A stretch of 64,000 nucleotides of DNA from Alphaproteobacteria bacterium (GTDB lineage: Bacteria > Pseudomonadota > Alphaproteobacteria > Micavibrionales > UBA2020), in NCBI GenBank assembly GCA_027483355.1, contig JAIXUW010000292.1, forward strand, positions 138,308 to 202,307, given 5' to 3'. The stretch's first letter is position 1, and each line of letters opens with the position of its first letter. Positions 2,996 to 48,663 of the stretch are shown in pieces. The notes under the pieces were generated by a model. It worked only from the letters and a program-made list of their open reading frames with translations, was not told the DNA's origin and ran no database searches. The position numbers and the translations under genes were made by a program.

Positions 2996-3571
2996 TCAGA
3001 GTTCTTGAACCCTGACCGTCATTCTTGTGTACAATTGTTCCCATTTCACCATGGCATGTTCTTTGAGAACGTTCAAAAACTTTCTATAGTACGTGATCTG
3101 CGAATTGCAGCAGCAGTGCTCGCCCATGAGCGGAAGCTTTAACACGCTTGTGTTTGGATTCGTGTCGTGGATCCATTCGTCGATCGCGCACAAAACATCG
3201 GCGCAACAATAGACCGAGTTTCGAACGCAATTGCGAGCTCGTGCGCAACAAGCTTCGGTAGCTGCAAAGTGAGCCAGCTCGATGAGGTCGTTGTCGTCCG
3301 CGAACATAACAAAGAGTAGATCAGATCGGCTCTTTTCCCACCATTGTATATCGGCGCTTGTGTGACGTTCCTTTACACGATTCGCAAAGCCCGCGCGGTG
3401 CTTTTTAAACACCTCGGGTGTGAGCTCTTGATGGCCCTCCTTGATGCATTTCTCCTTTCGTGCAAGATCTTTTGGTTGAGAAATAGGCACGACGGGCGGT
3501 GTGAGATACGTCGGGTCGGACTTGGCGAAGAGAAAGTCGTTTATAACGCGTAGGCCCATCAAATGTATCAT
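2996..3571 (-). CDS. hypothetical Cys-rich protein (191 aa)
   Basis: ATG-initiated ORF. Its ATG overlaps the TGA of the upstream gene (ATGA at 3568-3571). Cys clusters present: ACCARARNC, YCCADVLC, HCCCN. Confidence 0.7.
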   Translation of the reverse strand: MIHLMGLRVINDFLFAKSDPTYLTPPVVPISQPKDLARKEKCIKEGHQELTPEVFKKHRAGFANRVKERHTSADIQWWEKSRSDLLFVMFADDNDLIELAHFAATEACCARARNCVRNSVYCCADVLCAIDEWIHDTNPNTSVLKLPLMGEHCCCNSQITYYRKFLNVLKEHAMVKWEQLYTRMTVRVQEL

Positions 3572-8250: not shown

Positions 8251-10830
8251 CTAGGTTTGAGTGGGCGCCAGTGTATCCGCGGCAATCGATTTGCCGTGAA
8301 TTGACGCCACTTGAGCAGCTTCGGTTTTGATAACAGCCACAGGAAGAAACCTTTTGCCTGTAGCATCCACGATGGATCTAGACGCGCTCGCTACTACTTG
8401 AAATTTGGCGGTGGCGTCTGTCGTGACAAACGACCTGCACCAATTTGCAGGTGGTTGGAACTGATGCCCTGGAATGTACATGTTCACTTGAATCGGGTAC
8501 ACATTCCCGCATTTTGTGGCAAGTCTGAAATTCAGGACATGTTCGCGGAAAGTCGAACCCAAGTTTTGCGACACAAACAAAGCATGGCTCATTGTTCGAA
8601 TGATATTGTCTTCCGTATAAACGACATAGTCCGGGTCGATTCTCGAGTACGCGGCGATGATCCGACGCAGCTGGTCGATGTCTACAGCGTAGCCTGCGAA
8701 CTGCGGGTCCTTGTTCATGCATATTTGTAGTTTTCTCACGATCAAAGGCTTTTGTTGCACTTGTACGTAATTGGGCGTAGATATCTCGAGGCTAGGCGCC
8801 CATGTCATTTCTCGTTGTTTGCCACACGCGTCGCGAGCGGTCAATCTTACTGTAAAATTACTCGGCTTGGAATCCAATAAACATTGAACGTTTCCGTTGA
8901 TAGATCGAGTGTCCAGCTCACCTGAGACAGCCGCTTTGACAACGCTGCCGTTAGCGAGCTCGGATGCGGCCTGGATGAATCCAAAATCAATGTAAGACAC
9001 AATCGCGCGATTGACAGCTGCGACAATGTTATCATTAGTGAGAGGCGTGGTTCCAAAATCGACGCGAAGGACTGCAGGCATAGGCATTCTGAACACGGGC
9101 GCGTCCGCGGGCGTCAAATCCACAAGAACAGGAGACGCATCTTCGTATTCTTCTCTTTCGATAACGGCTCCGCATTCGCTGCGGGAACTCCAACCATAGA
9201 CAGGCTTGGCGATAAAAGCGCACAGTCCTCTCGACGTGTCCTGTCTTACGATACGATGTCTCATGGGCAAAATCTGAGTGTCTACCTTGGCCGATCTATC
9301 AACAGAAGTAAGATCGACGACGGACACTGCTAGCGTGTCGGACAATCGAATCACGTTTTTGGCGGAGAGTGAATTCAGATCAGTGTTCCGTTGAACTGGA
9401 ATCACGTCCGATTGAATGGCTTCTCTGTCTTCGCCTTCGATATGCGTGAAAGTAATATTTGTGTAGTCCTGCGAATTGGGAATCCCCGCCACTTTCAAGT
9501 GCATTGTCTTGGCCACAATATCCGGGCAATGAGCCATCGAATGTGCTTGCTTTGTTTCAGTCGCCACTAACGTCGCGTTGTAATTCGGGCATCGGATAGC
9601 CGAGTTCACGATCGAGTAGTCTAACCGCGGGTGACGCGTAGCAACCCACAGATAGTCCAAGTCTTGTGATGGTAGATTGATTTCGGTACCCCCTGGAAAA
9701 GCGGGGTTCAGATCACTGACCAGCGGAATGTTGGCACATTGGAATGAAGTCTGAGGACACTCGACGTGGTGAGCCAGCTTGACTGACAGAATCCAGTTGA
9801 CGATTTTGGAATACGAGTCGTGAGATATGTGGGCCTCTAGAGGGGCTATCAGAGCATGTGCCGTGAGTTGAGAATCCGTAAACGCATTGAGCAAGTTGAT
9901 CGTGGCGGCGTGTTTGATCACACAGTACTGGCCGTCTGTCGCCGTCTCCTTTACCGCAAAGAGATTGGATCCGATAGAGGTTTGAATGACAGTTTTTAGT
10001 TCGGATAGCCATGTTTCTTCGCGCTGCAGGGCGTCGGATGACAATTCACGGTCGTCGACCACAGTAGGACACGTGTACTGCGCAAAACGGGCCGTCAGAT
10101 TGCTCTGGATTTCCCTGTTTTTGTTGATTAACGCAGTTTGAATATCCAAAGCGTGTCTTTTATGGTTTTGAACCGCTGTCTCGGGACACAGTCGAGCCGT
10201 GAACTGACGACCGGCAATCACGTCCGTGCACAGCTTATATTGCAGCTCCTTTGATATAACACTTGAATTCAACGCCTCCATGGTATGTACAATCGTAATT
10301 TGCTTAGTGTGAGTAGTGCAGCCGAATGGCAGAGGGTCTCCGTTGAATTTCGTCAACTGTCTGTCCGGAATGCGGATTAGACCAGGTTTGTCCCATCTAG
10401 AACATTCGACCTGATTGCTAGTGCATTGGCAAAAGATATTGTACGCAATAATGGCCCGGCGCTCAGAGTCCGAAGCGATGACATTGTCGGAAATTCCGTG
10501 CAAGTTCACATAAGCCGCAAAGAGTTCTTTCTCAGGGTCAACATTGATTCTATTCAAAGCGTCAAATGCCCATTCCGCCGTAGCTCGAGTGCGGAGCATG
10601 GAAACATTCCATCCCTTGGGCTGCTTGCATTCAGTGACCTCCTCGCACAATTGTGTCTCGTAATTGTACAAGAACATTTGATTTGTGTACAAATCAAAAC
10701 AGGTTATGCACGAAGGATGCATGTTGGAGCCATATCGAAACGTGGGGGCGCATGTCAGCTTTCCGTGCACTTTTTGGCACCCCAGCGCACTCAAGATAAA
10801 CAGAGCGGCCACAAGGCGCCAAAATAACAT
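8251..10830 (-). CDS. secreted Cys-rich glycoprotein-like protein (859 aa)
   Basis: The internal ATG at 10830 gives a classical signal peptide, MLFWRLVAALFILSALGCQKVHG. An alternative ATG lies at 10941. Many N-x-S/T sites and many Cys. No C-terminal TM. Confidence 0.8.
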   Translation of the reverse strand: MLFWRLVAALFILSALGCQKVHGKLTCAPTFRYGSNMHPSCITCFDLYTNQMFLYNYETQLCEEVTECKQPKGWNVSMLRTRATAEWAFDALNRINVDPEKELFAAYVNLHGISDNVIASDSERRAIIAYNIFCQCTSNQVECSRWDKPGLIRIPDRQLTKFNGDPLPFGCTTHTKQITIVHTMEALNSSVISKELQYKLCTDVIAGRQFTARLCPETAVQNHKRHALDIQTALINKNREIQSNLTARFAQYTCPTVVDDRELSSDALQREETWLSELKTVIQTSIGSNLFAVKETATDGQYCVIKHAATINLLNAFTDSQLTAHALIAPLEAHISHDSYSKIVNWILSVKLAHHVECPQTSFQCANIPLVSDLNPAFPGGTEINLPSQDLDYLWVATRHPRLDYSIVNSAIRCPNYNATLVATETKQAHSMAHCPDIVAKTMHLKVAGIPNSQDYTNITFTHIEGEDREAIQSDVIPVQRNTDLNSLSAKNVIRLSDTLAVSVVDLTSVDRSAKVDTQILPMRHRIVRQDTSRGLCAFIAKPVYGWSSRSECGAVIEREEYEDASPVLVDLTPADAPVFRMPMPAVLRVDFGTTPLTNDNIVAAVNRAIVSYIDFGFIQAASELANGSVVKAAVSGELDTRSINGNVQCLLDSKPSNFTVRLTARDACGKQREMTWAPSLEISTPNYVQVQQKPLIVRKLQICMNKDPQFAGYAVDIDQLRRIIAAYSRIDPDYVVYTEDNIIRTMSHALFVSQNLGSTFREHVLNFRLATKCGNVYPIQVNMYIPGHQFQPPANWCRSFVTTDATAKFQVVASASRSIVDATGKRFLPVAVIKTEAAQVASIHGKSIAADTLAPTQT

Positions 10831-16070: not shown

Positions 16071-17330
16071 ATGGAGCGCGACGACGACGACGCGATGGAG
16101 GTCGATGCTGATTTAGAACCTCAATACAATTGGGGGTTCACGATATCGAAAAAGAGCCATGGTTATTTAGCATATGCTGACTTGGCGGCGCAACAAAACT
16201 TTGATTTTGCGGAAAACTCGGCAAAATGCTTGTTCCTGGACTCAATCACGCAACCCGAGTGGAAAGACGCTTTACATTACATGAGTAGATCGGAATTTGC
16301 AATTGAGCGTCTTAACGAAGCCCGGAAATGGAAATTCGACTCGATCACGTTCAAGGGCGTTGTCGACGGCCGCTTCTTTGAATATATTCGCGCCTCGAAT
16401 CTGCTACATAAACTGGCACGCTTCAAATTCATGCAGCTCTTTATGTGCAAATTCGAGAATTTTACGACACTGCGGTTCGAATACTTTTTGGAGTTCCTTG
16501 GCGCAATTGGCCCTAAATCGCTATACGTGGCTGATCCACACGACGGATTGACTGTTTCTTCAGAGTCTTACGATTTTCTGCGCCATTTGTTCCGAGAAAA
16601 GCACCCTGGGCTCGAGGAATTCCGGTTAGACTACGTTATGGCCGATTTACCTACCACGGCGACTGTGGTTCTTCTAGATGTCATACAAGCGTGCACCAAT
16701 CTTAAATCGTTTCAAATCAACTCTCTGATCCCGGAAAATAGATCAAAGGGCAAAGTAGTGTACTCTAAATTCGCGCTGCGTCAGAATTGCGCAGCCATTC
16801 TCGACAATTTGCTTCAAAATGCATCTCTTGCACGATTGCGATTGCCAGCCTGGTTTTTTGAAGAAGCCAGCGTGCTAAACAAGATTGCGTCGATCCCTGA
16901 CCTGCTCAAATCGAGAAACTGCACGATAGAGCACTTGACCGTGTTCTGGAGCGCCAATGACCATTCTAAATTGGACTTTTCGCAACAAGCAATGTCATTT
17001 TCGCCCATTCGAGTACTTGTGCTCAAGGGAAACACGCTACCGGAACTGGTGTCAAGTGCCGCGTTCCAAAACGGGAATGCCTTGCCCTCTGCGATTCGAT
17101 ACAGTCTCAGATCGCTTCAGTATTTCAACACGCAAATGTCGTTAGATCTGCTGAACATGTATGTCAGCCCAGGAGCGGTTCCGGGCAAAATAAGCGTCGT
17201 CGAGATTTTTAGGCGCAAAAATTTGAAGTCTAAGAAATTTGTTGTCACGAAAAACAAAGTTAGAAAAATCGTGCGCGAAGACGGGCAGGATACGGATAGC
17301 GACAATCCGCCGCCTTCCCAGTACTTGTAA
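16071..17330 (+). CDS. LRR-like paralog family member B (419 aa)
   Basis: aaaaaaaaATG start. Leucine-rich, RNI-like periodicity: TNLKSFQINSL, LQNASLARLRLPAWF, IEHLTVFW, IRVLVLKGNTLPEL. Motifs shared with 1670..2956 and 19923..21107. Confidence 0.8.
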   Translation: MERDDDDAMEVDADLEPQYNWGFTISKKSHGYLAYADLAAQQNFDFAENSAKCLFLDSITQPEWKDALHYMSRSEFAIERLNEARKWKFDSITFKGVVDGRFFEYIRASNLLHKLARFKFMQLFMCKFENFTTLRFEYFLEFLGAIGPKSLYVADPHDGLTVSSESYDFLRHLFREKHPGLEEFRLDYVMADLPTTATVVLLDVIQACTNLKSFQINSLIPENRSKGKVVYSKFALRQNCAAILDNLLQNASLARLRLPAWFFEEASVLNKIASIPDLLKSRNCTIEHLTVFWSANDHSKLDFSQQAMSFSPIRVLVLKGNTLPELVSSAAFQNGNALPSAIRYSLRSLQYFNTQMSLDLLNMYVSPGAVPGKISVVEIFRRKNLKSKKFVVTKNKVRKIVREDGQDTDSDNPPPSQYL

Positions 17331-17595
17331 ATAAGCATAATGTAAAACCAAAACGCAAAAAGAGGTGATCGCGCCGCAAGATTGAGATATATTGGCAATA
17401 AACACATAGCGTAACGATTATACACACAATGTAAATTGCAAATGCCCGAGTTGTACGGTGTAAAACCTGAATGTACTGGGGTATATTGTAACAGATGTTC
17501 CATTTGAATAACGAAGAATCTCGCATGCTGTGCACCTCCGGAATACAGACCGGATTTGGGGCCTTTTGTACCGCCCGGGACCCAGCCAATTTTTT

Positions 17596-18276
17596 TTGTG
17601 GTCTCGCGCGTTTGCTTGGTATTTTGTCATCGCACTAAAAAAAATGTAAAAGGAAGCGTTGCCGTGCCTGCGATAATGATGCAATTGCGTGTAAATTAGC
17701 GCCATTCTACCCCCTGTTTCAATCTGTGGTTCCGGTTCTGATTTTATCACAAGTGCACCCGCGGGTGTCTGCAGCGTTCTGTGTGACGTGTACTCAACTA
17801 AACAATGCACTCACTGTCGTGTAGGCTCCAGGGCCAATAGAGAACACTGCAAAGCCGGCACCGCCGACTCGACGGACGCTTCCGATTTTCTTTTGCGGTC
17901 TCGCGCCGTTTTAAACCACCCTGGGCGTTGCGCGGAAAACATTGTGGTCTCGCGCGTTGGGTTGAAATTTTGCTAACATGTCCAAAAAATGCAAAAGAAG
18001 CGTTGCCAGCTTAACTATCAAAGTACCTTGCAGCTAGTCACACAGCGCCGCACCTAGGATTCTTACAGCTTCTGTAGTTCGCCGCAAGGCCTCTTTCCGT
18101 GTCTACACGACCAAAGAGACTTTGGATTTTTTGTACAATTCTTTCTTACAACGTATTTGCATACGAGGACAATGCACTACACGGGATGCTAGACCGGCAG
18201 ACGCTTCCAGTTTTGATTTCGGAATCGCCTCCTTTTGAACAAGCCTCGGCGGCGCGCAAAAACATTGTGGTTTCGC
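17596..18276. repeat. degenerate ~340-bp tandem duplication punctuated by GTGGTCTCGCGCG
   Basis: Unit A 17596-17663 vs 17942-18007 (TTGTGGTCTCGCGCGTT...AAAAAATG[TC]AAAAG.AAGCGTTGCC, about 75% identity by eye). Unit B 17875-17953 vs 18200-18276 (GACGCTTCC...AAAACATTGTGGT[CT]TCGC). A variant 13-mer lies at 17895, and an inverted GTCTCGCGCC at 19461-19470. Confidence 0.75.
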
Positions 18277-18330
18277 AGGAGTAGTCGCGGTTCAAGTTTT
18301 TTATGATATACACGAGAGCAGGAGACACGT

Positions 18331-18639
18331 TCACAAATTCTGTCTTGCAATCTCGACTTCTCTTGACACGAAATTGAGAAGGCGCGCGAGAGGAAGATTG
18401 CCACTGTTGGCCGCGTTCCCGTTGCCCAACAAAATGACGCGCTCTAACATGTTGTAGAACTCCTTGAGATCAACCTTGTCTTTGTCGCCTTCAATGACGT
18501 GGAGGCGGCACAGAAGCCTGTTGATGGCAGCGTAGACGTTGGCGTTTTTTTCGGAGCAAATGGTCACCGTCTTCACGTCGTCCTCCGTTTTTTCGGTAGA
18601 AGTCAGAGTGAACGAAAAGTTGTACGTCTTGTTCGACAT
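18331..18639 (-). CDS. hypothetical protein (102 aa)
   Basis: First ATG (gtgtacaATGtcg) of a track ORF that begins at TTG. Isolated between two repeat-rich non-coding islands. Confidence 0.55.
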   Translation of the reverse strand: MSNKTYNFSFTLTSTEKTEDDVKTVTICSEKNANVYAAINRLLCRLHVIEGDKDKVDLKEFYNMLERVILLGNGNAANSGNLPLARLLNFVSREVEIARQNL

Positions 18640-18832
18640 TGTACACAATGCTTTCTCTTGAATTGTTAGACAGTAGCGACTGAAAACAGGAACGAGAACC
18701 GCCGGTTCGCGCCGCCGGCATTTTTTTTTGCGCGCAACTTTTTTTGTACTCGCCGGATAAAAAAATTATGTGTGCGGCCGTGTGTTAAAACTTATTCTAC
18801 TTTACTCACTTCAATCTGCTACACATTCCATT

Positions 18833-19405
18833 ATGGAATCAACATTTCAACTTGTTGAACTCTGTTTCTCGGCGCTGGAAAAGAGCGAAGGCGACTGCGA
18901 CGCCGCCGCGACTGCTCTGTTCGAAGCTCACGGAGACAAATACGGCGATCAAAATAGTCTCAAACTTCTTGCGTACACTTTGAAAACGGGATCCTCGCGA
19001 TTAAATGAAGCCTTGAAGCCGAAACGGCGTTTCCGTCGCAAGGCGGCGCAAGTGGAGCGCGCTTTCCATTGCCCGGTCGGCAATTGTATCAAGAGCTACG
19101 GAGAACTCGGTGCATTGAGAAATCACATGAGGATCAAGCATCAAAGCGCGAGTAAGAAGTACGGAAACAACAATGTGCTCAAAAAGGCAAGCGACGAGGC
19201 TGCTTCGCGACATTCTAAGAGTGCAGTCACTGTGTCCAAAGATCCCGAGCCCGAGTGCAAAGAAACTCAAGTTCAACTGCCTCCTGTTCAGAACATAGAA
19301 CGGTTTCTTTTGGAGCATCCGCGAATGGTGTGGCCTGTTCCCTTTGTTCATTCGGGCATGGAATACTTTCCATTGGAGCATTATCGTCACCCGATGTATT
19401 GTTAG
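18833..19405 (+). CDS. C2H2 zinc-finger protein (190 aa)
   Basis: First ATG (MESTFQL) of a track ORF that begins at GTG. Single finger FHCPVGNCIKSYGELGALRNHMRIKH (C-x4-C-x12-H-x4-H). Confidence 0.65.
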   Translation: MESTFQLVELCFSALEKSEGDCDAAATALFEAHGDKYGDQNSLKLLAYTLKTGSSRLNEALKPKRRFRRKAAQVERAFHCPVGNCIKSYGELGALRNHMRIKHQSASKKYGNNNVLKKASDEAASRHSKSAVTVSKDPEPECKETQVQLPPVQNIERFLLEHPRMVWPVPFVHSGMEYFPLEHYRHPMYC

Positions 19406-19563
19406 CAATATATGTCATGATTTATTCTAACATTTCGGTGTTTTGAGAGCTACCACCAGCGGCGCGAGACTTGTGTGCGAAAAAAATGGCAACGCGTCTG
19501 CGCTCGTCGGTTTTGATCGGCGGATGTTTTGAAATTGACTACTATAGTTTTCTGAGTCCGTTT

Positions 19564-19753
19564 AATCGAAATTGAATTTGACCGTAAAGAAAATCGATAG
19601 CGCCATGTGCAACAGGCGCAAAAACAGCCAGGGTGTGGGTACGTGCCGGACAGCTAGTTTCTGAAAGACTTTCCGGTTACCAGTCGAACGAAACTGGGCG
19701 GCTGCTGCAGGTGTCGCTATCGATTTTCTTTTAGGACAAATTCGATTTGGATT
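19564..19753. repeat. ~190-bp imperfect palindrome (56-nt arms, 77-nt spacer)
   Basis: Left arm 19564-19619 (AATCGAAATTGAATTTGACCGTAAAGAAAATCGATAGCGCCATGTGCAACAGGCGC) matches the reverse complement of 19697-19753 at 46 of 56 positions. A third copy is at 41719-41764. Confidence 0.85.
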
Positions 19754-31153: not shown

Positions 31154-31837
31154 TCACTTGGCGATTGTAATATTTGGCTTGGTTTTCCAAAAAGCCTGAG
31201 CAATGGGAGTTTGAAGAACATGCCCAACCCTCTCGATTTTTGCCAATTTCAAAATTTCCGATCCAAATCCCATTCGTCTGGCTCTTCGAGCGACCCATAA
31301 AATGTCTGCTCTTTGATCGTCACGGCTCGATACGGATAGTAGAACTGGAAGATACAAAAATGGACTAGATCCTTTAACAAACACGCGGTCAGTCCCCTTT
31401 GTTCCGTTTTTAGGAGGTTTTTTGAGAATGAGTTGCAACGTAAAAAGGTCACCATTTTCGTAGGCGCTCAGCAAATGTTGTCGATCGTTCCAAAATCCAG
31501 ACCGGCGCCCAAACACGCGCTTCTGAATTTTGTATTCTCGGCGCAGTTCAGCCATGTAGATCCAAAACGTATGAGGGCTTTCAATGGGAACAAGAAGAAA
31601 CCGCTCCCAGTCGTCCATGCGTTGAATGTCGGCTAGAGGTGCAAACCACGCAATAGACTCTGCCATTACAGGATTCAGCTCGGCCCACTTGTAGTATTCG
31701 TCGGTAGAAACATTGGGATTTTCGAGGATATTGTCCCAAACGTCCTTTGCACTACGCGTCTCGCTTGCGAGAACTGGCCGCTTATACGGCACAATGTAAT
31801 CTGACAGTTTGGTTTCGCTACCCGACGAACGGCTCAT
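31154..31837 (-). CDS. hypothetical protein with GNAT-like C-terminal motif (227 aa)
   Basis: ILWVARRARRMGFGSEILKLAKIE fits GNAT motif A (R-x-x-G-x-G after a beta strand) and is followed by IAQAFWKTK. Weak call based on motifs only. Confidence 0.7.
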   Translation of the reverse strand: MSRSSGSETKLSDYIVPYKRPVLASETRSAKDVWDNILENPNVSTDEYYKWAELNPVMAESIAWFAPLADIQRMDDWERFLLVPIESPHTFWIYMAELRREYKIQKRVFGRRSGFWNDRQHLLSAYENGDLFTLQLILKKPPKNGTKGTDRVFVKGSSPFLYLPVLLSVSSRDDQRADILWVARRARRMGFGSEILKLAKIERVGHVLQTPIAQAFWKTKPNITIAK

Positions 31838-31897: not shown

Positions 31898-31909
31898 CCC
31901 CCCCCCCCC
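31898..31909. repeat. C12 homopolymer in a divergent promoter region
   Basis: gCCCCCCCCCCCCt between the divergent starts at 31837 (-) and 31979 (+). Confidence 0.9.
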
Positions 31910-31978: not shown

Positions 31979-32428
31979 ATGTCAGCTCCAGTTGCTGAAG
32001 TTACATTAGAAACGCAAAGGGATATTAGGCCTTCGACACAGCTATGTTTTGGCCCTGGGTACTACAAGAACGTCAGAATCAACGACAAGATTGCCGTGCC
32101 TCTTATTGCATGGTCTAGTAATGCGTGCTTGTCGTACAAACTGGGGTTTATTGAAGCTGACGGGCAAGTGAAGCTTAGATGGGATCCTCTCAAGCAGGAA
32201 ATGGGCGTCGAAGAGTCCGCTGTGACCACGGTTATCAATTCATATTCCAAGCCTGGGCCTGAGCCTCAACCTGAGCCGGAACAAGTGAAAAAGAAGATCA
32301 GCGTTCCCAAAAAGAAGAAGAAGGTGGTATCGACCAAGAAAAATGCCATTCCCGAAGCTGTTCCCAAGTTTTTGAAGGAGAAAAAGAAAAAAGCCAAGGC
32401 AGTAAATGCAAAAAAGGCGGGCATATGA
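31979..32428 (+). CDS. hypothetical protein with Lys-rich C-terminal tail (149 aa)
   Basis: ATG ORF. Tail: PEPQPEPEQVKKKISVPKKKKKVVSTKKN...KEKKKKAKAVNAKKAGI. Confidence 0.7.
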   Translation: MSAPVAEVTLETQRDIRPSTQLCFGPGYYKNVRINDKIAVPLIAWSSNACLSYKLGFIEADGQVKLRWDPLKQEMGVEESAVTTVINSYSKPGPEPQPEPEQVKKKISVPKKKKKVVSTKKNAIPEAVPKFLKEKKKKAKAVNAKKAGI

Positions 32429-37851: not shown

Positions 37852-38832
37852 ATGGCTTTGGAGTGCATTCAAAAACTCCGCGCCAAGTCGGCCATGCGCC
37901 AGACGTTGCACAGTGATCTTGACGACTTTAACTCGATGAATGGTGAATTCTACGTTTCTCCTACGCATGAACTGGAAGAAATGGGCAAGAGGAACATGCG
38001 AGAATTTGGCACGAAGAGAAAGCGTGTTGACGAGAAGACTAAAGAAAAGAAAGTTATGGCGTTCAAGATTGAGATTGCACGAATGACACTTGCCACTATT
38101 TTTGCTCTATTCGACTGTGTATCCGATGCCGGAACGCAGTTGACTGTCGCTCAGTTGACCGTTTGCCGAGAAGTCATCGGGTCTCTTTTGCCGGCCCTCT
38201 GCCTCGGAGTCGATATCTACACTCTGCTTCAGCATGAAATCTACGAGAACTACGGCATTAGATACACGGGGAAGGGTCATTCCGCGTCCGGAGGCCGTCG
38301 TACGGGTAAAACATACGGCTGTGCATGTGTCATGTCTATTGTCGCCTGCGCCGCCCCTGCCTTCAAAGTCATGTTTGTCAACTTGTATTCACACGCCGGC
38401 ATGGAGAACTTGAGAACGATGAACTACTTTGTTGACATTTTTACAAAGGACAAGAAATTCAACATTTCCGTGAGCAAGAAGGACAAGTACAATCTGTTTG
38501 TGCACTCACACATGTACAACTTTATCAAGAACAAGATTGACGAGGATCCTGCGACATATGGAGAGTTCAGGAGCTTGCTCAAGGAGAGCGTTCTCACTTC
38601 TCTGCCCAATATGGATGGCTCCAGTGGCAACGTACGCTCTTTCCCTGTTCATTTTGACACTAATACCCGGTCGTTTCGGTTTTTACAAAAGCAGGAAATG
38701 TCTGGTTGCACCCCGCCCTCAATACGCCGAGCTCTCTCAGGTACGCCGGTTTTGAGACCAAATAGAATTGCACGCCCTTTAAACTTTAAATCCTTTTGCA
38801 AAAAACGTGGCTGCTTGCGTTTTTGCTTGTAA
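37852..38832 (+). CDS. P-loop NTPase-like protein, Walker A neighbourhood reminiscent of terminase large subunit (326 aa)
   Basis: Walker A GGRRTGKT, followed by a hydrophobic helix, KVMFVNLYSHAG and GSSGNVRS. No clean hhhhDE Walker B. The last ~65 codons look low quality and contain two GTACGC donor-like sites (38632, 38741). Confidence 0.65.
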   Translation: MALECIQKLRAKSAMRQTLHSDLDDFNSMNGEFYVSPTHELEEMGKRNMREFGTKRKRVDEKTKEKKVMAFKIEIARMTLATIFALFDCVSDAGTQLTVAQLTVCREVIGSLLPALCLGVDIYTLLQHEIYENYGIRYTGKGHSASGGRRTGKTYGCACVMSIVACAAPAFKVMFVNLYSHAGMENLRTMNYFVDIFTKDKKFNISVSKKDKYNLFVHSHMYNFIKNKIDEDPATYGEFRSLLKESVLTSLPNMDGSSGNVRSFPVHFDTNTRSFRFLQKQEMSGCTPPSIRRALSGTPVLRPNRIARPLNFKSFCKKRGCLRFCL

Positions 38833-38863: not shown

Positions 38864-39880
38864 ATGTACAGGCCAGGAGTCGTCGATTTATCTCAGGATA
38901 CCGATGCGGACAAGAAAAAGCTATATCCCTACGGGTTCTTTATTGAAGACGGACAAAGCAAAAGTCCGCCCACGGGCTTTCTCAACGACGATTATGTAAA
39001 ACTATTCGTCGCTATGCTGCAACACGGCCGTGAAATGGAAAGGACACTAGACAATATCGATTGTCAAAACGAAAGCTGGAAAGCCGGCAAGTATTTTAGT
39101 GATCTTATGCGAGGATACGAATGCGAAGTCGCTGTTTTGGATATTGAACAAGACAAACTGCCTTGGTCCTGGCTGAGATTCTGCAGCGCTTATAACGCAC
39201 CGCTGGACCTCAACATTCGGCCCATGTCCAACACGCCTTATATGTACGACAAGATAGGTATATTTCCCTCTCTAGGGGCCTCGATGCTTTTCAACTCTCC
39301 TGCGTCAGATTATAACAGGACCGTTTGCAAACAATTTGTGCAGCTGTGGCTACGAACGCGAAAGGCCAACGATTTTGGAATCAATGAGACGGGAGGTTAT
39401 TTTATGATATGTAAATGCATGCCTCTGGCGTTTATCGTTCACGGCGGCGACACGCTGCATTACAGTCTTCTTGTGACTATAGACGGACTCAAATGGTATC
39501 ATTTTGATTCTATCACACAAGGCTTGAACAATGGAGTTGCTGAAAGAGGCGTCGAATCACTGCGAAGGATGCTTTTGGAAGCGCGAAAAAATAACGCGCT
39601 GGAAGACGAGCCCGTGCCACGCGAATTTAGCGTGGTTCATATGAATCGGTTCTGGGACGCGGATCATACACCTGCTATTCAACCGGACGGTGTGAGCTGC
39701 CTGCTGTACAGCGTCGCCGTGTTGGATCTATTTTTGACGACGAATTTTGACTCGTTTCCCAATCTGCACGTGAACGACACAAAATGCATTCATGCGAATA
39801 TTCCGGCCATGCGTGAATTCTGTCTAGCAATTTACAGAGTTTCATGGGGCTACTTTAATCACGTCAGGCGCATTACGTGA
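38864..39880 (+). CDS. Ulp1/adenain-like (C48-type) cysteine protease (338 aa)
   Basis: The ordered catalytic pattern is HYSLLVTIDGLKWYHFDS (His..Asp), then about 60 aa, then IQPDGVSCLLY (Gln..Cys). The spacing is as in the Ulp1/SENP and adenovirus/NCLDV protease families. Confidence 0.7.
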   Translation: MYRPGVVDLSQDTDADKKKLYPYGFFIEDGQSKSPPTGFLNDDYVKLFVAMLQHGREMERTLDNIDCQNESWKAGKYFSDLMRGYECEVAVLDIEQDKLPWSWLRFCSAYNAPLDLNIRPMSNTPYMYDKIGIFPSLGASMLFNSPASDYNRTVCKQFVQLWLRTRKANDFGINETGGYFMICKCMPLAFIVHGGDTLHYSLLVTIDGLKWYHFDSITQGLNNGVAERGVESLRRMLLEARKNNALEDEPVPREFSVVHMNRFWDADHTPAIQPDGVSCLLYSVAVLDLFLTTNFDSFPNLHVNDTKCIHANIPAMREFCLAIYRVSWGYFNHVRRIT

Positions 39881-39887
39881 CAACCGG

Positions 39888-39910
39888 GCACGCGCGCGCG
39901 CGCGCGCGCA
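39888..39910. repeat. alternating purine-pyrimidine tract, (CG)9 core at 39891-39908
   Basis: gcaCGCGCGCGCGCGCGCGCGCGca, 8 nt after the protease gene stop. Confidence 0.9.
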
Positions 39911-40067: not shown

Positions 40068-41606
40068 ATGGTGAATCGAGTTAAAGTGGCTGAAATTCGA
40101 ATTCAAGATCTCAACACGCGCGCCGAAGGGAATGCCGCTGTTCAGATCAGCGATGCCGACAAGTTCATTCCCATCATCCCGTCCTTTGTCTTTATTGGAA
40201 TTTCTGCATTAATATGCATCGTGCTGGCGCTCTATTTGTTCTACAAAATACTGCAGCAGATTGACTTTGTCAAGCGCTCTTCGGACAAAATCCAGACGCT
40301 GTATTTGTCAGTTCCCGGCGCTTCCTCCTTGGCCTCGTCTCCTCAGTACTCGCTCAAATCTATAGAGTCGAATCAAAAGCTGAATCTGGCCAGTTCCAAA
40401 TTCCAACTCGACATTTACACGAAACCTGCCGTAGATCGACCGGATGTATGTTTCAAGATTCATTCATACTCTACGGCATCGTTTAAACTAGAAACCACTG
40501 TCAAAACAGTTGCGCTGGCAATCGTGCAGCGAGGTGTGCCGTCTATGGATCTAGAGTCTGCTCAATTCAAATCGGATCCTAATCCAGGAAACGACGGGAA
40601 CGCAAAGAGTCAACAATTGCTCGCTCAGTATTCGCCCGGTCCTCGCGAAATTGCCGTTTACGGTCTGTTAGCCTTGAGTTTTGCTTTACTTGGCTACCAG
40701 TACGGAATCATGTACAGTAGTAATGGGTATACGATCAAAAGTGACGAAAGCATATCATGGTACAGCCGTTACATTATGTTCGGAGTGATTACATCCACTG
40801 TCATGGCGGCGATTGCGAGTGTCACACTTGGAACGGTCTTCCATTACATCCCATTCACCGTGGCTCTCTTAAACGGGCTTACATACGCGTTATTGAGCGC
40901 GGCAGCTGCATCTATTCCGGGATCTCAAACCGTGTTCATAGTACCAGCCGCGGTCGCCTACGTGATTTTAGCGGCCGTCACCACGTTCTATTTTGTAGAT
41001 ATAGTATTGGAGAACTCTAAAATCCGAATGTGGCTTCCCGCAAACTCGCGCGTGGTCACGGGCATTAGTTTCGTGCTTCAAGTGGCGTACCTCGTTCTGG
41101 CTTTTGTGGGCTCGGACATTTACAAATCCCTGACCCCGACAGCCACATATTGGGTGTTGCCGGCATTGGAAACGGCTCTTTTAGTGTATTACGGCGCTGT
41201 TCTCATTGCTGTCGTCGAGTATTTGGAAACCGAACTGGCAAACGCCGTCTTGCGGCTCTGCGGCGTGCCGGAATCTATCACTATTGCCGGATGTGACACT
41301 AAAATGTCAAAACAAACTTCCGATAGCTTGGGAACGCCATCAAAATCGCCTGTGGCGCTATTGTTTTCAGGTCGACGGGATTTGCAAGCCGCAAAGGATT
41401 CTGTCGCGCAAATGACAAATTCCTTGCAACCTAAAACAGATTTACCACAGCCTAATCCGATTAGCATGCGCGCTAGGAATACTCAGAAGCTGCCAGAGCG
41501 CGATAACTCGCCTCCAGCTCCCGCAGTGAGTTCTACAGACGCCAAATCTATGCAATCGGCTATTGAAAGAATAAGGCTACGCACTGCTCAAAGTGCGAAT
41601 GGTTAA
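40068..41606 (+). CDS. multi-pass membrane protein, about 7 TM (512 aa)
   Basis: First ATG of the track ORF. One N-terminal TM (FVFIGISALICIVLALYLFY), then six clustered TMs at aa ~195-400, then a hydrophilic tail. Confidence 0.8.
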   Translation: MVNRVKVAEIRIQDLNTRAEGNAAVQISDADKFIPIIPSFVFIGISALICIVLALYLFYKILQQIDFVKRSSDKIQTLYLSVPGASSLASSPQYSLKSIESNQKLNLASSKFQLDIYTKPAVDRPDVCFKIHSYSTASFKLETTVKTVALAIVQRGVPSMDLESAQFKSDPNPGNDGNAKSQQLLAQYSPGPREIAVYGLLALSFALLGYQYGIMYSSNGYTIKSDESISWYSRYIMFGVITSTVMAAIASVTLGTVFHYIPFTVALLNGLTYALLSAAAASIPGSQTVFIVPAAVAYVILAAVTTFYFVDIVLENSKIRMWLPANSRVVTGISFVLQVAYLVLAFVGSDIYKSLTPTATYWVLPALETALLVYYGAVLIAVVEYLETELANAVLRLCGVPESITIAGCDTKMSKQTSDSLGTPSKSPVALLFSGRRDLQAAKDSVAQMTNSLQPKTDLPQPNPISMRARNTQKLPERDNSPPAPAVSSTDAKSMQSAIERIRLRTAQSANG

Positions 41607-41718
41607 ATGCAGCCGCGTTAGCGCGTGCAATGTAAAATGTAGTTAACCCGGCATGTATGATTCGGCGGATAAAACGAAATTGATTACAATTGTTTATATA
41701 ACACGTGTGACCTAATAT

Positions 41719-41764
41719 GAATTTGTCTTGAAAGAAAAACGATAGCGGCACCTGCAACAGCCGT
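41719..41764. repeat. third copy of the 19.6-kb palindrome arm
   Basis: GAATTTGTCTTGAAAGAAAAACGATAGCGGCACCTGCAACAGCCG is about 85% identical by eye to the arm sequence at 19564-19619 and 19697-19753. Confidence 0.8.
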
Positions 41765-41867
41765 GAAAAAAGTGAGCCGGTACCCTCCGCAGGTTTTGTA
41801 GTTTTCATAGACAGTTGGGGGCGAACACTCAGAGTCAGTTTGCTTGGCTATTGTACATGCCGTTATC

Positions 41868-42338
41868 ATGAATGTCGCCGGACAAATTTTCGTTGAGCAG
41901 TACAGACTTAGTTTCAACAGTTTTGAAATATTATGCATTCGGCAGATCAATACGGCCTTTGCAGGAGTCGTTTCGCCGTCTTTCTTGAGCTGCAGCGTAT
42001 CTTATGATCGCTACGCTATTGTAAAATACGCCATTCCATGTAGAAATTATGCTGCCACGAGTATAGCGCTGAATGTTGCATCTGACCTGTGCGCGAAGCT
42101 TTACGATGAAACCGGTCTGGAGTTCTATTCAACAACGCGCCGCGATTTGGTGCAGACAAATGCAGGGGAATCTATAATCGAATGTACACATGTTCTAATA
42201 TCTAAACAGCGCCGCCAATTATCTGTTGGTCCAGGGTTGTTTTTGTTAGCTGGCGCGGTCTGCATAGCGTGCTTTTTGGCCGGTATGATAGTGCAAGAGA
42301 TTCAAAAAGATTGTACAAAATTGTGTATTAAACCATAG
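41868..42338 (+). CDS. possible tail-anchored protein (156 aa)
   Basis: First ATG of a track ORF that begins at TTG. C-terminal TM GLFLLAGAVCIACFLAGMIV. No A-rich leader. Competing antisense ORFs exist. Confidence 0.4.
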   Translation: MNVAGQIFVEQYRLSFNSFEILCIRQINTAFAGVVSPSFLSCSVSYDRYAIVKYAIPCRNYAATSIALNVASDLCAKLYDETGLEFYSTTRRDLVQTNAGESIIECTHVLISKQRRQLSVGPGLFLLAGAVCIACFLAGMIVQEIQKDCTKLCIKP

Positions 42339-42349
42339 CGGCCCAAAAA

Positions 42350-43720
42350 ATGAGCTTATTCCGGCTTTTATACGCCATTTACTCTGGCTCCAAGTATGCC
42401 ATAGCTCGAGAGGACAGTAAATTATGCGGTGGAAACAACACAATGCATAGTGTGTCCATGTTGACTTATTTTGTCCGGGAAAACATGCCGGGCCTTTATT
42501 TGCTTTCGGCGCCTGATTTTACGGCTCCAAGGGATTTAGGAGAGCCACTGCAATTTGATCAAACATTCAAAATGTTTATTGAATACATGAAAGGCGCAAA
42601 AGTGATTTGTCTGGACGCCATGGGCGAGTTGGAGGAATCGGACGATTTGGTCTCGGACTCGACCACCGCCGCTGGAGGAAGTAATTTGTTGCAAGCTCCG
42701 ACTAGGCTCGTGTTCGCAGACAATGAACTTTGGCGCGAATTTTGCTCTTCAAAACTCAAAATATCTCAAAGTGTACTTTTGAATATCGACGTACGCGCCA
42801 CGTGCTGGCGTGTGCTATTCGGAGTCGTAGACGGGAACTACCGCCACTGGCCCGAAACTTACGCCAACCACGAAAAGTCTTTCAAATTGTCTCTGCTCCA
42901 AGTCGTAAAGGCCAAAAACATAAAAGACTTAAAATTCGATGCGGCGACCATACGAAAGGATGTGCCTCGAGCTCAGTTGACAGACTCGACTCACGAGCTG
43001 ATGCTCAAATTGGCACTCGGAACCGTCGTGGCCAAGGATTCAACGGTCGGATATGCACAAAGCATGTCTCATATCGGTGCGGTGCTCGTACGCGTGTTTT
43101 ATCCAATTACGTCGTCACCGAACAAATTTTCCGAACAATGCCCGCAAATTAGCGACTGGTTTGCCGACGAGAAACACGCCGACGTTCAGTTCAGATGGCG
43201 CTTACTCGACGTGATTATTGGTATTCAAAAAATATCCGATCAAGTCCATCAGCTTCTCGTGAATATTGACAAGAACGGCGGGCTCAAGCAAGACGCTGGG
43301 CCCATGGCAGTCTACTGCAAGCAGATATTCAGCAAAGTGGCACTTTTGGACCCGGATTTACATTCTCATATTGCCGTGACATGCGAAGCGTATGGCACAA
43401 TGGTGTCCGCGCTATTGTTCGTTTCTTGGGTCGATTCGCTATTTGCGCATAAAATGCCATTTGAAGACGTCGTTCAAGTGTGGGATTTTCTATTCGCCGG
43501 TTTTGCGCACAAATTCTCGTTCATGAAACGATTGGAAATGTTCTGCGCTACTCTCTGTCACCTTCAGCGAGTCAGAATTATGAATTTGAAAGAGGCAAAT
43601 GACATTATCGCATGCATGTCGACGCTGCCCGAGCAAGATTACAAGGGTATGAGCGTACCGATACCTAAAGTGATCAAAGAGACGTTTGCGAATTTGACAA
43701 AACACTGCAAGGAGCTCTGA
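42350..43720 (+). CDS. TBC (Rab-GAP) domain protein (456 aa)
   Basis: All three TBC signature motifs are present in order and with normal spacing: RATCW (RxxxW), IRKDVPR (IxxDxxR arginine finger), GYAQSMSHI (YxQ glutamine finger). Confidence 0.75.
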   Translation: MSLFRLLYAIYSGSKYAIAREDSKLCGGNNTMHSVSMLTYFVRENMPGLYLLSAPDFTAPRDLGEPLQFDQTFKMFIEYMKGAKVICLDAMGELEESDDLVSDSTTAAGGSNLLQAPTRLVFADNELWREFCSSKLKISQSVLLNIDVRATCWRVLFGVVDGNYRHWPETYANHEKSFKLSLLQVVKAKNIKDLKFDAATIRKDVPRAQLTDSTHELMLKLALGTVVAKDSTVGYAQSMSHIGAVLVRVFYPITSSPNKFSEQCPQISDWFADEKHADVQFRWRLLDVIIGIQKISDQVHQLLVNIDKNGGLKQDAGPMAVYCKQIFSKVALLDPDLHSHIAVTCEAYGTMVSALLFVSWVDSLFAHKMPFEDVVQVWDFLFAGFAHKFSFMKRLEMFCATLCHLQRVRIMNLKEANDIIACMSTLPEQDYKGMSVPIPKVIKETFANLTKHCKEL

Positions 43721-43782
43721 CGCCCATTTAGCGCTGAAATGTATTATAATGTATAAAACCCCACTTTATTCAGAAACCATAT

Positions 43783-45741
43783 TTACACTGAATCAGATTT
43801 GCTTACGAGCCTGCGCCCGTGCTCGTACTCGTACAAAACTGACTGGACGTCCAAATAGAACGCCTGGCACTGCCCGAGCACGCTTCTCTTCAAAAAAATG
43901 TCGCGGAACTGAGGCGCGAGGCCGGCATTGTAGTACTTTGCAGTCGTCGGGTCCAGCAAGAACGAGTCCCGTTCTTCGGAAGCGGTTTCATCGAGCGCCT
44001 TTTTTCCCGCCGCGAGTTTGAGTTCATCAACGGTTTCTCGTTTAGGCTTGATCAGAAGCAAAAACTGTCCAGCAGCTTGCTTTAGTAATAGGACGGGCAG
44101 TTGTCGAATATTAGCCACTGCGTTGACAGCGTTGGAAGCTTTCTTTTCCAGAACAGTTCGGAGCATGTTCACCGCGCCCACATCACGAATAATCTCGTCT
44201 CTCAAAGAAGAAATCGCAGCCTGTGTCAGCTGACGCACAATAGGGTCCGGAATGGACGTCGAGGTGACGACTTGATTGATGAATTTATAGTCGTATTCAA
44301 GCCAGTTCAAAACCCGCTGCCACCTGCGTTCGAATTCTTCTGTAGAAGAGCAAAACGATAAATCAAGCTTGGGGCTGCGATTCTTTGCAATGTCGTAGTC
44401 GATCACCTTTTTGGCTTCTTGCAGCGCGGTTTTGCACGCCTGCAAAGTATCCATGAAATGTTTGAGGCATCTCTCTTCGAGCGGGACTTGTCTAGTGTTG
44501 TTGTCATCAGGGGCTGCAGTGACCGTGTTAGCTTCCACGGCCACAGTTTTCTCGCTCGGAGACGAGTCGGTGTCAAACTTGGCGACTTTGACCGTCTTTT
44601 CAAATGTCACCGGGCTCTCCTTACGTTTTGCAGGCTTAGCCCGCTCGCTTGACGTTTCCGATTGAAGCACAGAAGCCTTCATTGCACTTTTAATCTGAGC
44701 ACCTATCGTAGATTGTTTGACGTCAACGGGTTGCATGGGTTCCGCATCGACCTTTACACTGTTTCCCGGCAAATGTTTGTACACTCCAAATGTAGCGTAG
44801 CCATCAGAGCTCTCGTTGAATAATGTGCGTAGATAAGCAAAATTGTCGTCCTCGGCAATCTTGTCGTCTCCTTCGCCCGATGTAATGGAAGAGCAGACGT
44901 CGAAGAAGAGCACACCAATGTTGTTGAATTTCAAATAGGTCTGCTTGGCGACTTCCGCACCGTACGAAATTGTACGGCTTGCATTCAAATGCTCTTCGTA
45001 CGCCATAGATCCTCTGAGAAGGTACATGTCGAACGATGTCGCCGGGATCGTGTTGGGAATCTTTGGAAGTTGATTCACTAAGTCGGTCTCGGCTTTTGAA
45101 AACGGAATCAAGTCCAAATTCGGATAGGCAAAAGTAGACTTGACCTTTGCCGGCGCGGAGCGAGTGTAGCTTTTCACGGCGTACATAATGGCCAGGAACA
45201 CAGATCCGATTTTGGATTTGTCGCCTTCATCAAAAAACTTTTCTCCTGTATCATTGTTGATCGCGTAGTGAGCGAAATAAACGGGGCTGATGATAGACGC
45301 GATTGTTTCGACCGCAGGGTCGTTGGCGTCAGCGCCAAAAATCCGCTTCCATGATTCTAGTGTCCTTTTAGTCCCGGGACACCATAAAAACGGAGTGGGT
45401 TGCTCTGAAAAAGTTGCAAAGAGCGAGAGAAGATATTTGCAGTTTTCGCGCATCGCGGTGCGCACGCATTCCAAAAACAAGGGTTTCAAACCGTCTTTTA
45501 CAGAACTATACTCTTGATACCCTGTTCCATTGCAAAAATTCGCCATGGCGGAACGGGCGGGATGCGACTCTGTCGGCGCAATCTGCAATGTGCACATGGA
45601 CACAATGGAATCAATCACAACATCGGGTGTGAATCCGATAAGCTTGTTTGATATCACCTCTTCCGCGAGCTCTACATCGTCCGATCCTACGAGCACAGCG
45701 TTGTGCACATTTAGGGTTTCAAGGTTAATCTCCTCGCTCAT
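43783..45741 (-). CDS. hypothetical protein (652 aa)
   Basis: Long ATG ORF (MSEEINLETLNVHNAV...). AATAAA lies in its 3' flank. No domain recognised. Confidence 0.85.
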   Translation of the reverse strand: MSEEINLETLNVHNAVLVGSDDVELAEEVISNKLIGFTPDVVIDSIVSMCTLQIAPTESHPARSAMANFCNGTGYQEYSSVKDGLKPLFLECVRTAMRENCKYLLSLFATFSEQPTPFLWCPGTKRTLESWKRIFGADANDPAVETIASIISPVYFAHYAINNDTGEKFFDEGDKSKIGSVFLAIMYAVKSYTRSAPAKVKSTFAYPNLDLIPFSKAETDLVNQLPKIPNTIPATSFDMYLLRGSMAYEEHLNASRTISYGAEVAKQTYLKFNNIGVLFFDVCSSITSGEGDDKIAEDDNFAYLRTLFNESSDGYATFGVYKHLPGNSVKVDAEPMQPVDVKQSTIGAQIKSAMKASVLQSETSSERAKPAKRKESPVTFEKTVKVAKFDTDSSPSEKTVAVEANTVTAAPDDNNTRQVPLEERCLKHFMDTLQACKTALQEAKKVIDYDIAKNRSPKLDLSFCSSTEEFERRWQRVLNWLEYDYKFINQVVTSTSIPDPIVRQLTQAAISSLRDEIIRDVGAVNMLRTVLEKKASNAVNAVANIRQLPVLLLKQAAGQFLLLIKPKRETVDELKLAAGKKALDETASEERDSFLLDPTTAKYYNAGLAPQFRDIFLKRSVLGQCQAFYLDVQSVLYEYEHGRRLVSKSDSV

Positions 45742-48649: not shown

Positions 48650-48663
48650 ACACTTCATTTGGA

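What the first reader, a model, noticed from the sequence alone, without database searches (positions are those of the whole stretch)
19564..19753. 190-bp imperfect palindrome whose arm recurs 22 kb away (41719-41764): dispersed hairpin-forming element
The 56-nt arms (46/56 complementary by eye) flank a 77-nt spacer in the 0.5-kb non-coding gap upstream of LRR gene C. A third, solo copy of the arm (about 85% identical by eye, core AAAGAAAAWCGATAGCGNCAC.TGCARCAGSCG) lies in the 41.6-41.9 kb gap. Possible roles are a MITE-like foldback element, a hairpin or pre-miRNA-like RNA as in nuclear DNA viruses, or a protein-binding regulatory or origin module.
Basis: seen in the sequence. Interest (0 to 1): 0.65.

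Follow-up and report, generated by a model that had tools for sequence, protein, structure and literature searches.

The report
Conserved hairpin leader before two genes
The 190-bp palindrome is real and has a decayed sister copy 22 kb away; two related genomes carry a palindrome of unrelated sequence at the sister copy's position, so it is most likely a promoter-plus-hairpin cassette at the 5' end of genes, not a jumping element.

Summary
Arms 19564-19619 and 19698-19753 are 46/56 complementary with a 78-nt spacer, the longest local inverted repeat in the window (fold z about -7).

The "solo" copy is not solo. 41709-41764 has an eroded partner arm at 41844-41899 with the same spacing. Both elements also share about 50 nt of upstream sequence.

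The sister locus sits between a membrane-protein gene and a small tail-anchored ORF that precedes a RabGAP gene. Two relatives (about 52% RabGAP identity) carry, in that same gap, the longest inverted repeat of their whole locus. Arms are 27-36 nt at 81% complementarity, spacers 76-93 nt, fold z about -4.5, and there is no sequence similarity to the window's arms.

In all three genomes a TATA-like box lies 14-30 nt before the left arm, and the first in-frame ATG lies in the right arm. TAGTTT sits at the dyad centre in three of the four elements.

Best reading: a promoter plus a structured 5' leader hairpin, copied in this genome in front of LRR-like gene C. There the ATG is 8 nt past the arm and is followed by a putative GTACGT intron.

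MITE, pre-miRNA and classical origin readings fail their defining tests. No transcript data were available. The host genome looks mirusvirus- or herpes-like.

The parts
19513..19563 (+). Element 1 upstream module: box TCGGCGGAT (19517-19525), GAAATTGA (19531-19538) and a TATA-like TATAG (19543-19547). Homologous to 41657-41708.
   Evidence: Local alignment; shuffle test p=0.001; motif positions.
19564..19619 (+). Element 1 left (5') arm.
   Evidence: the repeat finder I1; nhmmer.
19620..19697 (+). Element 1 spacer, 78 nt, 51% G+C. TAGTTT lies at the dyad centre (19655-19660). The sequence cannot be aligned to the element 2 spacer, but the length is conserved.
19698..19753 (-). Element 1 right (3') arm, the inverted copy of the left arm (46/56).
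19786..19801 (-). Outer mirrored box (ATCCGCTGA at 19792-19800), symmetric to 19517-19525.
19761..19769 (+). Putative exon 1 of LRR-like gene C (ATGGAAAAC), 8 nt past the right arm. It is followed by a putative GT-AG intron 19770-19922 (GTACGT...TTTCAG); exon 2 runs from 19923 to 21107.
   Evidence: There is no in-frame ATG before 20046. However, the alignment to the weakly similar ORF 16071-17330 (one-to-one BLASTP E 1e-4) and the codon score show coding from 19923. Donors of the form GTACGY are seen at two other introns. This part is inferred.
41657..41708 (+). Element 2 upstream module: TCGGCGGAT (41662-41670), GAAATTGA (41676-41683), TATA box TATATAA (41695-41701).
41709..41764 (+).
41765..41843 (+). 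Element 2 spacer, 79 nt, with TAGTTT at the dyad centre (41799-41804).
41844..41899 (-). Element 2 right arm, degenerate (32/56 complementary to the left arm). It contains the ATG at 41868. The core hairpin 41736-41872 has z -2.4.
41868..42338 (+). Small tail-anchored ORF (156 aa) whose start codon lies in the right arm. It is orthologous to L029:3472-3933 and L028:9512-9958.
   Evidence: BLASTP E 5e-10, full-length alignment; the two relatives' ORFs are 53% identical to each other. The codon score alone is weak.

Best explanation
The palindrome is the transcribed 5' leader of the downstream gene, together with its TATA-type promoter. Transcription would start about 30 nt after the TATA-like box, at or near the start of the left arm. 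The mRNA would then begin with a long imperfect hairpin: a 27-56-bp stem and a roughly 80-nt top that carries a central UAGUUU. The 3' arm of this hairpin contains or abuts the start codon.

Such a stable hairpin at the capped 5' end of the mRNA would hold back normal scanning. Expression of the gene would therefore depend on unwinding, on bypass (shunt-like), or on a factor that recognises the hairpin. The element would then act as a translational or temporal control element.

The ancestral copy sits in front of the small tail-anchored ORF next to the RabGAP gene (element 2). In this genome the promoter-plus-leader cassette was copied in front of LRR-like gene C (element 1).

What is shown: the palindromes, their positional conservation with diverged sequence, the ATG and TATA geometry, and the central motif. 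What is inferred: the transcription start site, folding of the RNA in vivo, any effect on translation, and the direction of copying.
For: 1. Orthologous occupancy. The relatives are L029 (Logan SRR11430616) and L028 (ENA ERZ7462356), and they share the gene order membrane protein, gap, small ORF, RabGAP. Orthology rests on E 7e-66, E 5e-10 and about 52% identity respectively. The top-ranked local inverted repeat of each 15-21-kb locus lies in that gap. In L029 the arms are 3345-3380 and 3457-3492 (36 nt, 81%, spacer 76). In L028 they are 9370-9396 and 9490-9516 (27 nt, 81%, spacer 93). By chance the placement probability is about 0.02 x 0.014.

2. Each relative's palindrome folds significantly: z -4.5 and -4.6, 0 of 200 shuffles. 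The element 2 core gives z -2.4 and element 1 gives z -6.8.

3. The arms share no detectable sequence between the window and the relatives by blastn or nhmmer. Yet 24-30 of 36 mirrored positions pair in every element. Structure is kept while sequence is not.

4. Within the window, the arms and the upstream module are conserved (73-79%). The spacer sequence is not (p = 0.57 and 0.14), but its length is (78 against 79 nt).

5. The first in-frame ATG of the small ORF lies inside the right arm in all three genomes: 41868, L029 3472 and L028 9512. In element 1 the first ATG after the hairpin is 8 nt past the arm.

6. A TATA-like box lies 14-30 nt upstream of the left arm in all four elements. TATATA is exclusively non-coding in the window, 12 against 0, and many genes show a TATA about 45-80 nt before the ATG.

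7. An asymmetric TAGTTT sits at the dyad centre in element 1, element 2 and L029, in the same orientation relative to the downstream gene.

8. The sense-strand RNA is more stable than the antisense RNA in 4 of 4 elements, by 4-13 kcal/mol.
Against: - There are no transcript or transcription-start data, so the leader may not include the left arm.
- Hairpins of -44 to -88 kcal/mol at the 5' end normally block translation, so a special mechanism has to be assumed.
- Element 2 in this genome is eroded: the full element gives z -0.8.
- Counts of G:U against A:C mismatches do not clearly favour RNA over DNA.
- Only three genomes are available, and no formal covariation test could be run on a structural alignment; MAFFT plus RNAalifold failed.
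- A more distant relative (L022, 28% RabGAP identity) has no gap and no palindrome at that position.
- The orthologue of element 1 could not be reached.
Confidence: 0.45

Rival explanations
1. It is a DNA-level dyad element: a lytic replication origin, or a cruciform or protein-binding site, of a herpes- or mirusvirus-like nuclear virus. It would be recognised as double-stranded or extruded DNA and would only happen to overlap a promoter.
For: - The genome looks herpes- or mirusvirus-like. A P-loop ORF (37852-38631, Walker A motif GGRRTGKT) stops at a GT splice donor that is conserved in 12 homologues.
- Foldseek's top hits for that ORF are the T4 gp17 and P74-26 large-terminase ATPase domains (E 0.06-0.4, probability up to 0.96).
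- Terminases split near the Walker B motif are described for mirusviruses and alloherpesviruses (PMC12768974).
- Large intergenic palindromes occur in malacoherpesvirus genomes (PMC3623871). They serve as origins in alphaherpesviruses (from memory).
- The copy number is low, the position is conserved, and the DNA fold gives z -7.3.
Against: - The centre is not A+T-rich: spacers are 49-60% G+C.
- Arm sequences are not conserved between relatives, which is unexpected for binding sites of an origin-binding protein.
- The element lies between tandem genes, not divergent ones, and its right arm carries a start codon.
- The central motif is asymmetric and is oriented with the gene.
- A better origin- or enhancer-like candidate exists in the window: the ACGTAAC repeat cluster at 58144-58430.
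Confidence: 0.2
2. It is a selfish or neutral palindrome: a foldback or MITE-like transposon remnant, or an inverted duplication kept symmetrical by intrastrand gene conversion, with no function for the virus.
For: - The size (190-300 bp) and the TIR-like arms fit.
- There are two dispersed copies between unrelated genes.
- Similarity between the arms is mosaic: the element 2 left arm is closer to the element 1 right arm, and the element 2 right arm shares diagnostic bases with the element 1 left arm. This suggests conversion or flipping.
Against: - There is no target-site duplication at either the inner or the outer boundaries (read directly).
- There are only two loci in 64 kb and none in about 130 kb of relatives' loci.
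- Conservation is unequal: arms and upstream module are kept, the spacer is not.
- A palindrome has persisted at the orthologous site across about 50% protein divergence, with fully replaced arm sequence.
Confidence: 0.15
3. It is a precursor of small RNAs (pre-miRNA- or siRNA-like hairpin), or another stand-alone non-coding RNA gene.
For: The hairpin is long and stable, a TATA box lies upstream, and nuclear DNA viruses are known to encode miRNAs (from memory).
Against: - The stem-loop geometry is unlike pre-miRNAs.
- The start codon of a conserved protein gene lies inside the 3' arm.
- Rfam finds nothing at gathering score, and only E > 1 noise in sensitive mode.
- There is no tRNA-like feature.
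Confidence: 0.07

Closest known systems
Elongated leader hairpin of plant pararetroviruses (CaMV 35S RNA, ribosome shunt). Comparison from memory.
   Same: A long imperfect hairpin occupies the 5' leader. It is conserved as structure rather than sequence, and the main AUG lies at the 3' base of the stem.
   Different: Those leaders are about 600 nt, carry several short ORFs, and belong to reverse-transcribing plant viruses. Here the element is 150-190 nt, lies in a large dsDNA genome, and has the AUG inside or 8 nt beyond the stem. No shunt evidence exists.
Herpesvirus origin palindromes (HSV oriL and oriS, from memory) and the large palindrome between ORF49 and ORF50 of OsHV-1/AVNV (PMC3623871)
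   Same: Large intergenic palindromes in one to three copies, in nuclear dsDNA viruses with a spliced terminase gene.
   Different: Those have an A+T-rich centre, conserved origin-binding-protein boxes, and sit between divergent genes. Here the centre is about 50% G+C, the arm sequence is replaced between relatives, the flanking genes are tandem, and the right arm overlaps a start codon.
MITEs and foldback elements of giant viruses (Submariner in Pandoravirus, pithovirus repeats; from memory)
   Same: Size, inverted terminal arms, intergenic dispersed copies.
   Different: No target-site duplication, only two loci, an orthologous position kept across genomes, and unequal conservation of arms and interior.
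Mimivirus 'hairpin rule' palindromes at mRNA 3' ends (from memory)
   Same: Palindromes of unique sequence whose structure, not sequence, matters.
   Different: Those follow the stop codons of most genes. Here there is no general rule, and the element sits after the likely TGTAA-type 3' signal of the upstream gene and at the 5' end of the next gene.
Baculovirus, nudivirus and nimavirus homologous regions (hrs; from memory)
   Same: Dispersed imperfect palindromes in non-coding DNA of nuclear large DNA viruses, acting as enhancers or origins.
   Different: hrs are tandem arrays of about 30-bp palindromes with conserved sequence. Here there are single units with 56-nt arms and a long spacer.

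Membership tests
MITE / foldback transposon | Terminal inverted repeats | tested here: met
   56-nt arms at 82% complementarity.
MITE / foldback transposon | Target-site duplication flanking the element | tested here: not met
   No direct repeat at the inner boundaries (19563/19754, 41708/41900) or the outer boundaries (about 19513/19802).
MITE / foldback transposon | Many copies with uniformly diverged interior; empty orthologous sites in relatives | tested here: not met
   There are two loci in 64 kb. The spacer cannot be aligned while the arms are about 76% identical. The orthologous site in L028 and L029 is occupied by a palindrome of different sequence. The rest of the 292-kb contig was not available.
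Herpes-type palindromic replication origin | A+T-rich centre flanked by conserved inverted binding sites for an origin-binding protein | tested here: not met
   Spacers are 49-60% G+C. The arms are not conserved between relatives.
Herpes-type palindromic replication origin | Supports initiation of DNA synthesis | not testable with these tools
   Needs replication assays.
pre-miRNA / known RNA family | Hairpin of about 60-80 nt with a small terminal loop, or a match to a curated covariance model | tested here: not met
   The stem is 27-56 bp with a 76-93-nt top. Rfam finds no hit at gathering score, and the best hit is E 1.3.
Giant-virus 3'-end hairpin rule | Palindrome immediately downstream of the stop codon of most genes | tested here: not met
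   Apart from this element and the 58-kb ACGTAAC repeat region, the local inverted repeats of 14 nt or more are short and mostly inside coding sequence, not after stop codons. The elements lie 100-180 nt past the stop codon and overlap the next gene's start.
Structured 5' leader (translational control hairpin) | Core promoter upstream, so that the hairpin is transcribed | tested here: inconclusive
   A TATA-like box lies 14-30 nt before the left arm in 4 of 4 elements. No data on the transcription start site.
Structured 5' leader (translational control hairpin) | Start codon within or just after the 3' arm | tested here: met
   ATG at 41868, L029 3472 and L028 9512 inside the right arm; ATG at 19761 is 8 nt after it.
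Structured 5' leader (translational control hairpin) | Pairing maintained while sequence changes | tested here: met
   Each of the three relatives' and element 1's hairpins is independently significant, and the arms have no sequence similarity. This is not a formal covariation statistic.
Structured 5' leader (translational control hairpin) | Effect on translation | not testable with these tools
   Needs reporter assays or ribosome profiling.
Baculovirus-type hr | Tandem array of short repeat units each holding a palindrome | tested here: not met
   TRF finds no array at either locus.

The most novel reading that the evidence does not exclude
The element would be a previously undescribed type of viral cis-element. 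It is a portable 'promoter plus long-stem hairpin leader' cassette with a conserved apical UAGUUU, recognised by a viral or host factor to gate expression of particular genes in a clade of uncultivated mirusvirus- or herpes-like nuclear viruses. It would be able to be copied in front of new genes, as element 2 to element 1 suggests. A variant of this reading is that the same dyad doubles as the first identified replication origin of this group.
Probability: 0.2. Interest if true: 0.7.

Novelty: new variant of a known kind. Interest (0 to 1): 0.45.

Why it matters
Almost nothing is known about cis-regulatory or replication signals in mirusvirus-like genomes, whose genes are mostly without known relatives. 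This non-coding structure keeps its position, size, central motif and relation to a start codon across genomes about 50% diverged in protein, while its arm sequence turns over completely. That makes it a concrete handle. It predicts a transcription start site, a testable RNA structure and a set of co-regulated genes. It also shows that a promoter-leader module can be duplicated to another gene. If it proves instead to be an origin, it would be the first for this group. If it is only a tolerated palindrome, the finding is of local interest only.

Tried and rejected
- Further copies elsewhere. The arm core gave 0 hits in IMG/VR and 0 in JGI metagenomes. It gave 19 single hits in prokaryote genomes; these match only the 20-mer (at most 19.6 bits against 58 for true copies) and are chance.
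- Phage collection: no DNA match.
- Segmental gene duplication: rejected. The flanking genes of the two loci are unrelated.
- General promoter motif: rejected. The DRE-like WATCGATW and CGATAGCG motifs are not enriched in other intergenic regions.
- tRNA or known RNA family: none.
- General 3'-end hairpin rule: none.
- Spacer homology in either orientation (flip-flop inversion): not significant.
- Intron or 'introner' reading of element 1 (GTAAAG at 19584, TTTTAG at 19733): element 2 and the relatives lack these sites, so it is treated as coincidence.
- Formal covariation: MAFFT plus RNAalifold could not align the unrelated arms.
- Identifying the source: the SRR accession and the contig length were not found in the literature. 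The NCBI contig itself is not retrievable with the look-up tool.
- Terminase homology by sequence: Pfam and PDB profile searches were negative. Only the fold search was suggestive.
- More relatives through the RabGAP profile: none in IMG/VR or JGI metagenomes.

Full report
**Observation.**
The inverted repeat exists as described: arms 19564-19619 and 19698-19753, 56 nt, 46/56 complementary, 78 nt apart. It is the longest inverted repeat of any kind in the 64-kb window. It folds far better than dinucleotide shuffles: RNA + strand z -6.8, RNA - strand z -6.3, DNA z -7.3, with 0 of 200 shuffles as good. The arm core occurs three times in the window against none expected. The copy at 41709-41764 is 73-79% identical to the two arms and 89% over a 45-nt core.

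**Corrections to the anatomy.**
- The 41.7-kb copy is not solo. A profile of the three arms finds, as its best remaining hit in the window, a degenerate inverted arm at 41844-41899. This is exactly the mirrored place, 83 nt between landmarks against 82 nt in the first element.
- The two elements also share about 50 nt to the left of the 56-nt arm: TCGGCGGAT, GAAATTGA and a TATA-like stretch (p = 0.001).
- With a four-arm extended profile, all four arms score E 4e-30 to 8e-24, while the next hit is E 0.018.
- In element 1 the TCGGCGGAT box is itself mirrored at 19792-19800, equidistant from the centre.
- The spacers cannot be aligned in either orientation (p = 0.57 and 0.14), but they have the same length, 78 and 79 nt.
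- So the arms and the upstream module are conserved and the spacer is not. This argues against neutral decay of a transposon.
- There is no target-site duplication, and the neighbouring genes of the two loci are unrelated.

**Genome context.**
- The window is gene-dense, 48% G+C, and almost without known protein families. Pfam finds only SET+MYND, BTB, RabGAP-TBC and RING.
- TATATA occurs 12 times, always in non-coding DNA. Many genes have a TATA box 45-80 nt before an A-rich ATG context.
- The genome has GT-AG introns. A split methyltransferase is restored by removing 54209-54136.
- A P-loop ORF (37852-38631, Walker A motif GGRRTGKT) stops at a GTACGC donor. Twelve homologues found by exhaustive search all lose similarity at that same point.
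- A model of that ORF finds large-terminase ATPase domains as its top fold matches. These are weak, E 0.06-0.4, but the top five hits are all terminases.
- Terminases split near the Walker B motif, intron-rich genes and a largely unannotated gene pool are what a 2025 survey reports for mirusviruses (PMC12768974).
- I therefore treat the source as a mirusvirus- or herpes-like nuclear dsDNA virus or an endogenous copy of one. This is an inference, not a proof.
- The source contig is a 292,368-bp NCBI record, also seen in Logan run SRR16126875.

**The decisive comparison.**
- The RabGAP gene just right of element 2 has two relatives at about 52% identity: L029 (Logan SRR11430616) and L028 (ENA ERZ7462356, a 208-kb contig).
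- Gene order is conserved: membrane protein (E 7e-66), a gap, a small tail-anchored ORF (E 5e-10 to the window ORF 41868-42338; 53% between the two relatives), then RabGAP.
- In each relative the top-ranked local inverted repeat of the whole locus lies in that same gap. L029 has arms 3345-3380 and 3457-3492 (36 nt, 81%, spacer 76). L028 has arms 9370-9396 and 9490-9516 (27 nt, 81%, spacer 93).
- Both fold significantly, z -4.5 and -4.6.
- Neither shows any sequence similarity to the window's arms by blastn or profile search. Yet 24-30 of 36 mirrored positions pair in each element.
- In all three genomes the first in-frame ATG of the small ORF lies in the right arm, and a TATA-like box lies 14-30 nt before the left arm.
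- Anchored on the dyad centre, element 1, element 2 and L029 all carry TAGTTT at the centre, in the same orientation relative to the gene.
- The sense-strand RNA is more stable than the antisense RNA in all four elements.
- A more distant relative (L022, 28% RabGAP identity) has no gap and no palindrome there.
- No further relatives were found in IMG/VR or JGI metagenomes.

**Element 1 and gene C.**
- Gene C has no in-frame ATG before 20046. However, the alignment to the weakly similar ORF 16071-17330 (one-to-one BLASTP E 1e-4) and the codon usage show coding from 19923.
- The best model is a 9-nt first exon ATGGAAAAC (19761-19769) followed by a GTACGT...TTTCAG intron (19770-19922). The donor has the same form as in the two other introns.
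- The start codon is then 8 nt beyond the right arm. This mirrors the element 2 arrangement. This model is inferred.

**Interpretation.**
- The simplest account of all this is a promoter plus a transcribed hairpin leader that embeds or abuts the start codon. The pairing and an apical motif are under selection.
- This cassette would have been copied once within this genome, from the RabGAP-side locus to gene C.
- How the hairpin acts (block and release, shunt, or factor binding) is not known.
- A DNA-level role (origin, cruciform or protein site) remains possible. It fits the virus type, but it lacks an A+T-rich centre and conserved half-sites, and it overlaps a start codon.
- A selfish or neutral palindrome is disfavoured by the missing target-site duplication, the low copy number, the unequal conservation and the orthologous persistence.
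- A small-RNA precursor is disfavoured by the geometry and by the embedded start codon.

**Limits.**
- Only three genomes are available and there is no expression data.
- No formal covariation statistic could be obtained; the automatic alignment failed.

Noticed in passing
58144-58430 (within the ORF-poor stretch 57630-59319): Eleven of the window's 12 exact ACGTAAC heptamers cluster here, in both orientations. There is a 23-nt tandem unit and several inverted repeats. This is a repeat region of the enhancer or origin type.
   Followed up: partly
37852-38631 (+), donor GTACGC at 38632: A P-loop ORF (Walker A motif GGRRTGKT) ends at a splice donor conserved in 12 homologues from Logan, ENA, JGI and NCBI assemblies. 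Its top fold matches are phage large-terminase ATPase domains. It is probably exon 1 of a split, herpes- or mirusvirus-type terminase. No second exon was found in the window.
   Followed up: partly
54462-53831 (-): A SAM-dependent methyltransferase is split by a 74-nt GT-AG intron (54209-54136). Splicing restores the motif ...GGVYDFITDDGGH...
   Followed up: partly
Whole window, 5-65 nt after many stop codons (e.g. 2986, 29393, 32447, 53288, 61652; TGTAA at 41631): TGTACA occurs 42 times, about 2.7 times expectation. It or TGTAA often follows stop codons, also in the relatives L028 and L029. It may be a 3'-end or polyadenylation signal.
   Followed up: partly
17331-18830: A second gene-poor stretch of 1.5 kb, with a 31-nt direct repeat (17596-17626 and 17942-17972, 87%) and short inverted repeats.
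   Followed up: no
42350-43720 (+) and neighbours 40068-53764: The RabGAP-TBC gene and its neighbourhood are collinear with L028 and L029. The neighbourhood comprises the membrane protein, the small tail-anchored ORF, and ORFs of about 650, 887 and 1535 aa. This defines a small clade of related, unannotated genomes.
   Followed up: partly
31898-31909 and 39891-39908: A C12 homopolymer lies between the divergent genes 31154-31837(-) and 31979-32428(+). A (CG)9 run lies just after the stop codon of 38864-39880.
   Followed up: no
18833-19405 (+): The gene immediately upstream of element 1 encodes a protein with a single C2H2-type zinc-finger motif (CPVGNC...HMRIKH). Pfam does not report it.
   Followed up: no
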